Origin: Escherichia coli
Lineage (GTDB): Bacteria; Pseudomonadota; Gammaproteobacteria; Enterobacterales; Enterobacteriaceae
Strand: one strand, 5' to 3'
Assembly (NCBI RefSeq): GCF_003991155.1
Contig: NZ_CP031293.1
Length of the DNA stretch: 64,000 nucleotides
A program made the position numbers. Positions 3,001-6,000 of this stretch are shown here, piece by piece. How positions within the stretch are numbered: the stretch's first letter is position 1; every line of letters begins with the position of its first letter.

Positions 3001-6000
3001 CATCCACTTCAAAAGGAAGAGGTGATTGCAATAACAAACTGGCTGAATGAAAGGAATTCATTAAATGTTAAACATTTCAATGATAACCCGTGGTTATTTG
3101 TTTCCCGAACAGGAAAACCATTATCGAGACAACGATTTTATAACATAGTTTCTGCTGCGGGTAAAAATGCAGGTTTAAATATTAAAGTTCATCCACATAT
3201 GTTACGCCATGCATGTGGTTATTCACTAGCAGATAATGGTGTGGATACCCGTCTTATTCAGGACTATCTCGGGCATCGTAATATCAGGCATACGGTAATT
3301 TATACTGCTTCTAATTCAATGAGATTTGAAAAAATGTGGGGGAGAGGTGACGCAAAAAAGCAACATTTTGACCCAAAATGTAAACCCAATCTTTGTTTAG
3401 AAATTCTCGTATAGAAAAACATTTTTTTCTATAAAAAACATTAAATTTACTGATTTAGATCAATGTGTGACGTCAATCTACACATAAAGAGGTAGGTTTG
3501 TCTTCTTTTTAATCTTTGGCGTATAAAGCCAAAATGTAAATAATAATCAAAATTATATTCTGAATTAAAATAAATACGCAGGTTTTTTACCTGCGTTTTG
3601 TGCTATTTATAGTTAATTAAATTGATGTTGTCAAAATGGGTCATTTTGTAAACCTGTGCCTCAAGGTTTGTCTCCCCCCGGTGTGCAAAGCAAAAGGAAA
3701 TTGGGAAAGGGGATAACAGGAAATTGATTGCATGGTTTTGATTACGACGACAAAAAATATTTTTATAATTCAAGCAATTAAGAGTATGCGTTGGCGGGGT
3801 TTTTCGTACGTGAAAGTCATCGCTGTGGACGACTATTCTTCTCTGATTCGTGATTTTGGCACATCTTGCTTTCGGGATGAGCAATCGTTGTTGTTACCTG
3901 TATTCCCTGATAATGATTCTACTACCTGTATACGCTCACTGTATTTCATTCACCAATGGCTAAAAAGCCAGCCTGTCAATATTCCGTGCCTGGCATGGGG
4001 GGATAATGGTGTAGTTAGTAATAAAGGCATACCTTCCATACCGTGGAAATTAACAGCAGAGCAATTTTGTTTCTATATAGATAAATTTATCAATGGCTGG
4101 AGGTGCAAAAAAAATATTCGCGCGAGTCATAAAGTTTCTTTTTTAGAACGACAATTATCCCCGAGGGAGAAAAGTATCTTTATATATACCAAGGAAGGAA
4201 AAGATATTGCATGGATCTCTAACACCTTGGGTATATCCAGTAAGACTGTGTGGACGCATCGTCGTAGAGCTATGGATAAACTCGGGGTAAAACGTTTACA
4301 TCAATTTATAAATATTCCGCGTTCCCTTATTAGTGAAAATATTCAATTATAATGTACGTTCAAGAGTATTAGTGTTATGAATAAGATATATAAAGTCATT
4401 TGGAACCATACAACCCAAAAATGGGATGTTGTTTCAGAATTGACGAGTTGTAGAAAAAAATGTAAATCAACTCGCTTAGGAATTGCTTTATCAGCAATGG
4501 TTCTGGGGGGCGCTATTGCAATTAATTGCAATAACGCAATGGCAGATGTCATATTGTCACCAGACTGGCGTCCGGGTACGAATAACTCGGGTGTTGGGGC
4601 TGCAACAGTAAGTGGTAAAACCGAATACATCACTGGTCCAAATGTCGTCCAGTCTGGTGGGTCAGGTCTTATCTGGATGACTGTAGAACAGGCAATTTTA
4701 AATGGTTACACCACTGGAGATAATTTATCCGGATTGATTTACGTCAATACCGGAGAAAAAACAAAAACCATTACAGTGAAGGATGAGGCTACTGGCGCTT
4801 CTCAAACACTTCAAGTGTTTGATACTGACTCTTTCTCACAACGCGATGCGGGGACTGGGGGAAATGAAACCATTCCTGGTTTTAGTGGCACTGCAGATTT
4901 TTTCAATGCGACACGTTTTGTAACAGCCAATAATGGCGGTACGGCTATTTTGGATGTGGGTTCACCAGCAATCGGTAATTTTTTTAAAAATACACAGCTT
5001 GCTGTAGCTGATGGAGAAGGTTCCTCTGTTGTATGGAACTCGGTCAATGATTTTTATTTTCAGCCTGGTGCAACCATGCAGGGGGGCGGCGTTACTCAAA
5101 AAATCATTGACTCAATGAAATATGCTGGAACAATTACTGATTGGGCGGGAAAAACACACCATATTAACTCTCTTGATGATTTAAAGCAATATAATCAATA
5201 TTTGATAAAGTCACTAGAGGACAAAACGCTTTCTTATAAGCAGTATGATGCTGAATTTAATAAGGCCCTTATTGTCACCAAGCATAATTACAATGTGGAT
5301 ATGACCGCTGGGGGACGTATAGACTCAACTCCTTACAAAGAAAATGTAGGGCTGCTTGCTGTTCTCCATGCAACCAATAACGCACGAGCAATATTAGGTA
5401 AAACGGGTAAATTAACTGGAGTTCTTCCTGCCTATGGGAATGGAGGAGGGATCGTTGCAACTAATGGTGGGACCGGTGTTAATGAAGGGGTCATTGATGC
5501 CATTGGTACTGAAATGATTGCCTATCAAGACAGTACCATTGTTAACGATGGTACACTTTTTGTTTGGGATAATAATGATAAATATGCTCTCCAGGCAGAG
5601 GGGATGGTTGCCGGTAGTAATGGTTCTTCAGCCATTAATAATGGTGTTATTAATATTCGCCCATTTAAAAATGCTTTCGCTCCAGAGGGGATTAACACCG
5701 CAATTGTTGTTAGTAATGGGGGCATGGCAACAAATAAAGGCACAATAAATATTACTGCCGATGCATCAACTAATGATAATAATGGCAAAACACGAGGTGT
5801 AAATGTTGGAGCTGGAGGCTCTTTTATTAACTCGGCCTTCGGGAGCATCAATGTAGGTATTGCGGAGGATAAAACTGCGACTCATTCGGCTGTGGGTTCT
5901 GTTGCGATTGAAGTACAAAATGGTGCAAACAAAGTCGTTAATGAAGGTACTATTTTTTTGGGCAGGGGGGCTCAGGGGAACTACGGAGTCCTGGCAAAGG

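What the first reader, a model, noticed from the sequence alone, without database searches (positions are those of the whole stretch)
3415..3770. Candidate invertible promoter element between the second recombinase and the LuxR regulator
The gene order (Fim-type recombinases, then an AT-rich spacer of about 320 bp, then regulator and adhesin genes) parallels the fim switch. The spacer contains a palindrome centred on tgacgtca (3456-3480), a hairpin acgcagg/cctgcgt with a T-run (3576-3600), a 10-bp direct repeat aggtttgtct (3494-3503 and 3664-3673) and short AT-rich inverted repeats (tataaaaa at 3430-3437, tttttata at 3760-3767). I could not define the true inverted-repeat boundaries by eye, and the putative switch may extend into the annotated start of the regulator ORF.
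Basis: inference. Interest (0 to 1): 0.6.

Follow-up and report, generated by a model that had tools for sequence, protein, structure and literature searches.

The report
Known ipuS invertible promoter switch

Summary
The window carries the E. coli dsdC–ipuB–ipuA–ipuS–ipuR–upaE locus. It is 100% identical to many complete genomes and differs from strain CFT073 by 8 substitutions and no indels over 504 bp. ipuS was shown experimentally to invert in CFT073 (Battaglioli 2018, PMC6083910; PMC6458436).

The true boundaries are 7-bp inverted repeats: TGACCCA at 3369-3375, inside the 3' end of ipuA, and TGGGTCA at 3637-3643. They flank 261 bp (3376-3636).

Flipping that segment in silico reproduces every published descriptor:
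- PacI fragments of 186 bp (the window as is, so OFF) and 407 bp (ON).
- IpuA shortened from 209 to 198 aa, with its terminal K changed to F.

The predicted ON-form IpuA exists in 13 public contigs across two alleles. One contig matches the in-silico inversion 361/361 across both junctions. All 236 complete E. coli genomes with the locus are assembled OFF.

The switch does not reach ipuR. Only the hairpin at 3576-3596 stands out; it is terminator-like on both strands. Verdict: already known, low interest.

The parts
1467..2036 (-). ipuB, a Fim-type tyrosine DNA invertase (189 aa)
   Evidence: Annotated ipuB in the identical RefSeq record. Matches NCBIfam NF007370 at E=8e-61 and 205 bits, just under the 221-bit cut-off. 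Published as able to invert ipuS (PMC6083910, PMC6458436).
2785..3414 (+). ipuA, a Fim-type tyrosine DNA invertase. This is the full-length 209-aa form, which is made only when ipuS is OFF.
   Evidence: Annotated ipuA. NCBIfam NF007370 scores 250.5 bits against a 221-bit cut-off. Translation ends ...QHFDPKCKPNLCLEILV*.
3369..3375 (.). Distal 7-bp inverted repeat TGACCCA (IRL), inside the ipuA coding sequence. It sits within the 17-bp dyad CATTT-TGACCCA-AAATG (3364-3380).
   Evidence: It is the only inverted-repeat pair whose inversion reproduces the published 407-bp ON PacI fragment and the 11-aa truncation with K-to-F. The junction is seen in natural ON contigs. It is invariant in CFT073, Nissle 1917 and SCU-124.
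3376..3636 (.). Invertible segment of ipuS, 261 bp between the repeats and 24.9% GC. In the window it is in the OFF orientation.
   Evidence: The window as it stands gives the published OFF fragment of 186 bp. Contig L008 equals the in-silico inversion 361/361. The paper reports a 260-bp element. GC content.
3637..3643 (.). Proximal 7-bp inverted repeat TGGGTCA (IRR), within the dyad CAAAA-TGGGTCA-TTTTG (3632-3648). It lies 89 bp upstream of the ipuR ATG.
   Evidence: Its inner flank plus the first three repeat bases, GTCAAAATGG, are identical to the corresponding part of fimS IRR in K-12.
3408..3435 (-). Candidate sigma-70 promoter of the switch: -35 TTTATA (3435-3430), 16-nt spacer, -10 TATACG (3413-3408). 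The predicted start is near 3398-3402, antisense to the ipuA 3' end when OFF. After inversion it would lie at about 3577-3604 (+), pointing at ipuR.
   Evidence: The relaxed scan gives 4/6 + 4/6 matches with the start inside the ipuA coding sequence. That fits the published description of the 5' RACE result. A second candidate (TAGAAA 3431-3426 / GAGAAT 3408-3403) fits equally well. The figure with the exact bases could not be read, so this assignment is inferred.
3576..3596 (.). G+C-rich hairpin ACGCAGGT-loop-ACCTGCGT with T-runs on both strands. It looks like a bidirectional intrinsic terminator and lies inside the invertible segment.
   Evidence: both strands; 2 found against 0.3 expected. 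(minimum free energy -16.3 and -13.0 kcal/mol; z -4.7 and -5.4). The stem is conserved in CFT073, Nissle 1917 and SCU-124. The ipuS paper does not contain the word 'terminator'.
3732..4352 (+). ipuR, a LuxR-type (GerE helix-turn-helix) regulator and the first gene of the switched operon
   Evidence: Annotated as a helix-turn-helix regulator. PF00196 GerE is recorded on the orthologue. Only the C-terminal helix-turn-helix matches NCBIfam families. Published as ipuR.
4377..12296 (+). upaE, a phase-variable autotransporter adhesin (2639 aa, intact here)
   Evidence: Annotated as UpaE. The autotransporter beta-barrel domain TIGR01414 scores 398 bits. Surface adhesin function is published (PMC6083910).

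Best explanation
The region is ipuS, the third Fim-type promoter-inversion switch of E. coli, and in this window it is in the OFF orientation.

Tyrosine recombinases exchange strands within two 7-bp inverted repeats, TGACCCA at 3369-3375 and TGGGTCA at 3637-3643, and flip the 261 bp between them. The adjacent genes encode two of these recombinases, IpuA and IpuB. FimE and FimX also act on ipuS, and FimB does so weakly.

- **OFF (as here).** The element's promoter sits at its left end, overlapping the last codons of ipuA. It fires leftward, away from ipuR-upaE, and full-length IpuA (209 aa) is made.
- **ON.** The promoter moves to about 3577-3612 and reads rightward through the proximal repeat and a leader of about 120 nt into ipuR and upaE. 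The UpaE adhesin is then produced. ipuA acquires a new stop codon and encodes a still-active 198-aa protein ending in F.

Basis for each step:
- Shown by published experiments in CFT073: the inversion, the recombinases that catalyse it, a transcription start inside the element, and ipuR/upaE induction in the ON state.
- Shown here: the exact boundaries in this window, its OFF state, and natural ON alleles with the same junctions.
- Inferred: the exact -35 and -10 hexamers. Also inferred is that the internal hairpin at 3576-3596 acts as a terminator in both orientations and shields ipuR from ipuA read-through.
For: **Identity of the locus**
- Window 2700-4400 is 100% identical to chromosomes annotated ipuA / helix-turn-helix regulator / 'phase-variable autotransporter adhesin UpaE'.
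- The flanking genes dsdX, dsdC and ipuB are annotated in one of those records.
- Window 3300-3803 aligns with CFT073 without indels and with 8 substitutions. Both repeats and their flanks are identical.
- Both published primers map in CFT073. The reverse primer matches the window exactly, and the forward primer matches with 2 mismatches in dsdC.

**Agreement with the literature**
- They report that ON removes 11 aa from IpuA and changes the terminal K to F.
- They report PacI fragments of 186 bp (OFF) and 407 bp (ON).
- They report a 317-bp intergenic spacer.

**Reproduced on the window**
- Spacer 3415-3731 is 317 bp.
- The window as it stands gives a 186-bp fragment. Inverting 3376-3636 gives 407 bp and IpuA 209 to 198 aa ending ...HFDPF.
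- The two neighbouring inverted-repeat pairs give 417 and 397 bp instead.

**Natural ON alleles**
- An exact-sequence look-up of the predicted ON-form IpuA finds 7 contigs for this allele and 6 for the CFT073/Nissle allele.
- L008 is 361/361 identical to the in-silico ON sequence across both junctions. L006 and L007 have the same junctions plus 2 SNPs.
- In the ON contigs L006 and L013 the distance from the ipuA stop to the ipuR start is 350 bp, which is 317 + 33.

**Family features**
- IpuA exceeds the curated cut-off of the FimB/FimE-type 'tyrosine-type DNA invertase' model.
- The half-sites resemble fimS: GTCAAAATGG is shared with fimS IRR, and AACATTTTGACCCA compares with AACATTTGGGGCCA.
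Against: - No inversion was measured in the strain this window comes from, and its sequencing reads were not available.
- All 236 complete E. coli genomes with the locus are assembled OFF. For this allele the ON form is rare in public assemblies: 7 index blocks against 6569 for the OFF form.
- The stricter promoter scan (9 of 12 matches) finds nothing on the relevant strand. Only 8-of-12 candidates exist.
- I count 261 bp between the repeats, while the paper says 260.
- The body text of the paper says K-to-L, while its figure legend says K-to-F. My reconstruction gives F.
Confidence: 0.96

Rival explanations
1. The switch is bounded by the reader's AT-rich inverted repeats (about 3412-3437 and 3752-3767). 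It would then span the whole spacer and run into the start of ipuR.
For: These imperfect repeats exist: 16 nt, 88% complementary, 324 nt apart (I2).
Against: - The longest exact inverted repeat in this region (9 bp) is matched or exceeded in 60% of composition-matched resamples.
- Natural ON contigs keep 3644-3700 and everything left of 3369 unchanged. They invert only 3376-3636.
- Inversion at these repeats would not give the published 407-bp fragment or the IpuA truncation.
Confidence: 0.01
2. Recombination uses one of the neighbouring inverted-repeat pairs within the composite end sequences. One pair is the 9-bp CATTTTGAC/GTCAAAATG (3364-3372 and 3630-3638). The other is the 7-bp CAAAATG/CATTTTG (3374-3380 and 3642-3648).
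For: Both pairs are perfect inverted repeats at about the right spacing. The 9-bp pair is longer than the true core.
Against: - They predict ON PacI fragments of 417 and 397 bp, not 407.
- They predict IpuA ends of ...HFDNINLINYK (204 aa) or ...HFDPK (198 aa), neither of which ends in the published F.
- All six ON contigs shown for this allele read AACATTTTGACCCATTTTGACAAC, as predicted for the TGACCCA core.
Confidence: 0.02
3. The spacer in this particular strain is a fixed, non-inverting regulatory region. The switch would be locked OFF, and ipuR-upaE would be controlled only by conventional regulators.
For: Every one of the 236 complete genomes is assembled OFF. Some strains, such as SCU-124, carry frameshifted ipuA, ipuB and upaE.
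Against: - In the window ipuA, ipuB, both repeats and their flanks are intact and identical to the functional CFT073 sites.
- ON contigs exist that encode exactly this window's IpuA allele in its predicted ON form.
- A consensus assembly reports only the majority orientation, so an OFF assembly does not show a locked switch.
Confidence: 0.03

Closest known systems
ipuS of uropathogenic E. coli CFT073 (Battaglioli et al. 2018, mBio, PMC6083910; confirmed in mSphere 2019, PMC6458436)
   Same: - Same locus and gene order (dsdC-ipuB-ipuA-ipuS-ipuR-upaE-tRNA-Arg).
- Same 317-bp spacer.
- Identical 7-bp repeats and flanks.
- Colinear with 8 substitutions in 504 bp.
- Same predicted PacI fragments and the same IpuA truncation.

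This is the same element in another strain.
   Different: - Eight point differences in 3300-3803, five of them inside the invertible segment (3468, 3470, 3516, 3544, 3609).
- upaE is intact here (2639 aa). RefSeq flags the CFT073 and Nissle 1917 copies as frameshifted.
- Inversion has not been tested in this strain.
fimS, the type 1 fimbrial switch of E. coli (FimB/FimE; 9-bp repeats TTGGGGCCA flanking 296 bp in K-12)
   Same: - Same class of recombinase, and a promoter carried on a roughly 0.3-kb invertible segment next to the recombinase genes.
- Related half-sites: GTCAAAATGG is identical at the proximal end.
- The recombinases are shared between the two switches (PMC6083910, PMC6458436).
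   Different: - The repeat core is 7 bp rather than 9 bp.
- The distal repeat lies inside the recombinase coding sequence, so inversion changes the IpuA C-terminus.
- The output is a regulator plus an autotransporter, not a chaperone-usher fimbrial operon.
- A role for IHF, Lrp or H-NS is known for fimS but has not been shown for ipuS.
hyxS (fimX-linked switch controlling the LuxR-type regulator HyxR in UPEC)
   Same: It is a Fim-type invertible promoter that drives a LuxR-family regulator on a pathogenicity island. According to PMC6083910, ipuS half-sites are intermediate between fimS and hyxS.
   Different: hyxS has 16-bp repeats and is inverted only by FimX (stated in PMC6083910). I did not compare hyxS sequence here.

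Membership tests
ipuS (the specific published element) | Lies between ipuA and ipuR-upaE, next to ipuB and dsdC, with a 317-bp ipuA-ipuR spacer | tested here: met
   The spacer 3415-3731 is 317 bp, against 317 bp stated.
ipuS (the specific published element) | Sequence identity with the CFT073 element, including both 7-bp inverted repeats | tested here: met
   496/504 identical, no indels, repeats and flanks identical.
ipuS (the specific published element) | Inversion yields PacI fragments of 186 bp (OFF) and 407 bp (ON), measured from the published reverse primer | tested here: met
   186 bp for the window as it stands and 407 bp after inverting 3376-3636.
ipuS (the specific published element) | The ON state truncates IpuA by 11 aa and changes the terminal K to F | tested here: met
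   209 to 198 aa...HFDPK... becomes ...HFDPF*. Legend of Fig. 1C quoted.
Fim-type tyrosine-recombinase promoter-inversion switches (fimS / hyxS / ipuS) | An adjacent FimB/FimE-family tyrosine recombinase with the RHRY catalytic residues | tested here: met
   IpuA scores 250.5 bits against the 221-bit cut-off of NF007370 'tyrosine-type DNA invertase'. R in GLRVSE, HxxR in HPHMLRHA and Y in VIYTA can be read in the translation. IpuB scores 205 bits, just under the cut-off.
Fim-type tyrosine-recombinase promoter-inversion switches (fimS / hyxS / ipuS) | Both orientations of the segment occur in nature, with junctions at the inverted repeats | tested here: met
   OFF in 236 complete genomes. ON in contigs L006-L008 and L012-L015, with exact junctions verified for L006-L008.
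Fim-type tyrosine-recombinase promoter-inversion switches (fimS / hyxS / ipuS) | Half-sites related to those of fimS | tested here: met
   a 10-nt identical run at the proximal end and 11 of 14 matches at the distal end.
Fim-type tyrosine-recombinase promoter-inversion switches (fimS / hyxS / ipuS) | A promoter inside the element that drives the downstream operon in one orientation only | tested here: inconclusive
   Only two 8-of-12 sigma-70 candidates lie on the correct strand with a start inside the ipuA 3' end, and the stricter scan finds none there. The feature is established by 5' RACE and an ipuR-lacZ fusion in CFT073 and by RT-qPCR.
Fim-type tyrosine-recombinase promoter-inversion switches (fimS / hyxS / ipuS) | Recombinase-dependent inversion in the strain at hand | not testable with these tools
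   This needs reads or PCR from this strain. It is shown only for CFT073 and for plasmid-borne ipuS.

The most novel reading that the evidence does not exclude
ipuS may carry two design features that the ipuS paper does not discuss.

1. The conserved hairpin at 3576-3596 may be a bidirectional terminator. In either orientation it lies between ipuA and the switch promoter, so it would insulate ipuR-upaE from ipuA read-through.
2. In the OFF state the switch promoter fires antisense into the 3' end of ipuA. Together with the orientation-dependent IpuA C-terminus and 3' UTR, this would give 'orientational control' of the recombinase, as is known for fimE, and would bias the population strongly to OFF.

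In the OFF state each end is also a perfect 5-7-5 dyad (CATTT-core-AAATG and CAAAA-core-TTTTG). These become mixed arms in the ON state, which could be the basis of directional bias.
Probability: 0.3. Interest if true: 0.3.

Novelty: already known. Interest (0 to 1): 0.1.

Why it matters
ipuS is one of three cross-talking phase switches (fimS, hyxS, ipuS) that set the surface phenotype of uropathogenic E. coli. ON cells make the UpaE adhesin, swim less, adhere better to kidney cells and colonise mouse kidneys better (PMC6083910). All of that is published, so this window adds no new biology.

What this check does add:
- Base-exact coordinates and the OFF state for this window.
- ON alleles in public assemblies at the predicted junctions, though rarely: about 7 index blocks against about 6,600 OFF for this IpuA allele.
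- A simple trick for finding ON alleles: look up the predicted truncated recombinase by exact sequence.

Tried and rejected
1. **Two wrong inverted-repeat pairs.** I first took the longest pair in the repeat listing (9-bp CATTTTGAC, I1) and then a 7-bp CAAAATG/CATTTTG pair as the boundaries. Both failed the published PacI arithmetic, giving 417 and 397 bp instead of 407. The sum of the two published fragments pointed to a symmetry centre at 3506, and from that to the TGACCCA/TGGGTCA core. The repeat finder had not listed this pair because I had set the minimum length to 8.
2. **ON orientation in complete genomes.** Searching the 5,426 complete E. coli genomes with an in-silico inverted query found none. 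In all 236 carriers the middle part matched on the opposite strand. That query was built with the CAAAATG/CATTTTG pair. The conclusion does not depend on which of the nested pairs was used, and one search confirms colinearity with the window orientation.
3. **Forward primer position.** The paper's forward primer was not 1,289 bp upstream of the reverse primer. It maps in dsdC, at window 875 with 2 mismatches and exactly in CFT073. That gives wild-type amplicons of 2929 bp in the window and 2928 bp in CFT073. The 1,289-bp product fits the ipuB/ipuA-deleted locked strains. This last point is my inference from the strain descriptions.
4. **Promoter scan.** The standard scan gave no hit on the relevant strand. 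A relaxed scan gave two equally good candidates, and I could not choose between them without the figure.
5. **Rfam.** The search of the whole window found nothing in the switch region.
6. **Tool limitation.** Several fetched loci never appeared in the Python sandbox, so I compared them with the alignment tools instead.
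Full report
**What is there.** The window begins with dsdC (119-1072), ipuB (1467-2036, minus strand) and ipuA (2785-3414). A 317-bp AT-rich spacer follows, then ipuR (3732-4352) and upaE (4377-12296). Window 2700-4400 is 100% identical to many E. coli chromosomes. RefSeq annotates them as 'tyrosine-type DNA invertase IpuA', a helix-turn-helix regulator and 'phase-variable autotransporter adhesin UpaE'. The locus is present in 236 of 5,426 complete genomes. IpuA exceeds the curated cut-off of the FimB/FimE-type invertase model, and IpuB falls just below it.

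**It is a described element.** Battaglioli et al. 2018 (PMC6083910) identified ipuS in strain CFT073, between ipuA and ipuR. Their description:
- The element is 260 bp and is bounded by 7-bp inverted repeats.
- The distal repeat lies inside the ipuA coding sequence.
- Inversion to ON removes 11 aa from IpuA and changes the terminal residue (K-to-F in the figure legend).
- The transcription start lies within the element, in the part that belongs to full-length ipuA.
- IpuA (full-length and truncated), IpuB, FimE and FimX each invert the element.
- A PacI digest of a PCR product gives 186 + 1,103 bp (OFF) or 407 + 882 bp (ON).

A second group confirmed the 7-nt repeats by cloning both orientations. 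They showed that FimB also inverts ipuS weakly. They also measured induction of about 1,600-fold for ipuR and about 33-fold for upaE when IpuB drives the switch ON.

**Locating the boundaries in the window.** Each end of the element is a composite sequence: CATTTTGACCCAAAATG at 3364-3380 and CAAAATGGGTCATTTTG at 3632-3648. Together they contain three nested inverted-repeat pairs. I inverted the window in silico at each pair.
- The 9-bp pair gives a 417-bp ON fragment, and the outer 7-bp pair gives 397 bp.
- Only the central pair, TGACCCA (3369-3375) and TGGGTCA (3637-3643), gives the published 407 bp.
- The same model turns IpuA from 209 aa (...HFDPKCKPNLCLEILV) into 198 aa ending ...HFDPF. 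That is the published 11-aa truncation with K-to-F.
- The window as it stands gives the 186-bp fragment and full-length IpuA, so it is in the OFF orientation.
- 261 bp (3376-3636) lie between the repeats.

CFT073 was fetched directly. It is colinear with the window over 3300-3803, with 8 substitutions and no indels. Its ends are identical, and it is also OFF in the reference genome. Both published primers map in CFT073.

**Independent evidence for inversion.** Every one of the 236 complete genomes is assembled in the OFF orientation. I then looked up the predicted ON-form IpuA protein by exact sequence in the large assembly collection.
- It is encoded on 7 contigs for this allele and on 6 contigs for the CFT073/Nissle allele.
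- The OFF-form protein of this allele is listed in 6,569 index blocks.
- Contig L008 matches the in-silico ON sequence at 361 of 361 positions across both junctions.
- L006 and L007 share those junctions and differ by two SNPs inside the element.
- L009, L010 and L011 have the left junction and then end inside or just past the element, as assemblies often do where a population is mixed.

All are present at or near the stated coordinates. In composition-matched resamples of 3415-3770, a direct repeat of at least 10 bp occurs in 30%, an inverted repeat as long as the observed best in 60%, and a palindrome as long as the observed best in 24%.
- The TGACGTCA palindrome (3468-3475) is not conserved. 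CFT073 and Nissle 1917 read CGGCGTCA.
- The AT-rich repeats at 3430-3437 and 3760-3767 are not recombination sites, because the sequence to the right of 3643 is unchanged in ON contigs.
- The switch does not reach ipuR. It reaches 40 bp into the end of ipuA.
- The hairpin at 3576-3596 is the exception. It is terminator-like on both strands and folds far better than shuffles (z -4.7 and -5.4). Its stem is conserved in the compared alleles.

**Mechanism.** The established part is recombination within the 7-bp cores by Fim-family tyrosine recombinases. This flips a promoter that reads into ipuR-upaE only in the ON orientation.

The rest is inferred here.
- *Promoter.* It is one of two 4/6 + 4/6 sigma-70 candidates on the minus strand. 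The first is -35 at 3435-3430 with -10 at 3413-3408, and the second is 3431-3426 with 3408-3403. After inversion the start would lie near 3610 (+), about 120 nt upstream of the ipuR ATG.
- *Hairpin.* It lies between ipuA and the promoter in both orientations, so it probably stops ipuA transcripts from reading into ipuR. The ipuS paper does not mention a terminator.
- *Antisense transcription.* In OFF the promoter points antisense into ipuA. With the changed IpuA C-terminus and 3' UTR, this could feed back on recombinase level, as orientational control does for fimE. That comparison rests on my knowledge of the fim literature.

**Relation to fimS.** In K-12, fimS has 9-bp repeats (TTGGGGCCA) flanking 296 bp. 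The proximal ipuS end shares the 10-nt run GTCAAAATGG with fimS IRR. The distal end matches the outer flank of fimS IRR at 11 of 14 positions. This agrees with the paper's statement that the half-sites are similar and that the recombinases cross-react.

**Verdict.** The element is ipuS, already known, in its OFF state. Interest is low.

Noticed in passing
window 3373-3384 and 3529-3540: The 12-nt CCAAAATGTAAA, which overlaps the last three bases of the distal repeat and continues into its inner flank, recurs exactly inside the element. A direct repeat this long occurs in only about 3% of composition-matched resamples. The internal copy (GCCAAAATGT) also resembles fimS IRL (GGCCAAACTGT). It might be an extra recombinase-binding half-site.
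   Followed up: partly
window 3364-3380 and 3632-3648: In the OFF state each switch end is a perfect 5-7-5 dyad: CATTT-TGACCCA-AAATG and CAAAA-TGGGTCA-TTTTG. After inversion both ends carry one arm of each type (CATTT...TTTTG). This could underlie the directional bias reported for the recombinases.
   Followed up: partly
L005 (NZ_CP135712.1, strain TUM1586) 1778-2483; corresponds to window ~3575: An IS200C copy is inserted inside ipuS immediately upstream of the hairpin, and ATAAATA is present on both sides. It would separate the two ends by about 0.7 kb more.
   Followed up: partly
L006 and L007 (ON-orientation contigs), positions corresponding to window 3578 and 3607: Two ON-state assemblies share two SNPs inside the element. 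One changes the hairpin stem from CCTGCGT to CCCGCGT, creating an A-C mismatch that would weaken the terminator-like hairpin.
   Followed up: no
L009, L010, L011: Three contigs encoding ON-form IpuA stop inside or just past the invertible segment. Two of them end at the PacI site. This is the kind of assembly break expected when both orientations are present in a sample.
   Followed up: no
window 4377-12296 versus L017 (CFT073) and L004 (Nissle 1917): upaE is one intact 2639-aa ORF in the window. RefSeq flags the CFT073, Nissle 1917 and SCU-124 copies as frameshifted pseudogenes, although UpaE protein was detected in CFT073 in the paper.
   Followed up: no
window 13312-13386 (-): A tRNA-Arg (CCT) gene lies about 1 kb past upaE. 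In CFT073 the ipuB-to-upaE block, plus an OmpH-family gene, lies between dsdC and this tRNA. This suggests an islet inserted at the tRNA; the window's own 12.3-13.3 kb stretch was not examined.
   Followed up: partly
window 2037-2784: The divergent ipuB and ipuA genes are separated by an unusually long 748-bp intergenic region with no ORF of 60 aa or more listed in it. I did not examine it.
   Followed up: no
window 50645-50715 (+): Rfam match to naRNA4 (RF02564, nucleoid-associated noncoding RNA 4): 76.6 bits against a gathering score of 59.5.
   Followed up: no
L003 (NZ_CP051706.1, strain SCU-124): In this commensal isolate ipuA, ipuB and upaE are all annotated as frameshifted. Many of its differences from the window in the spacer are small indels in A, T or C runs. 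The cause could be real decay of the locus or sequencing error.
   Followed up: no
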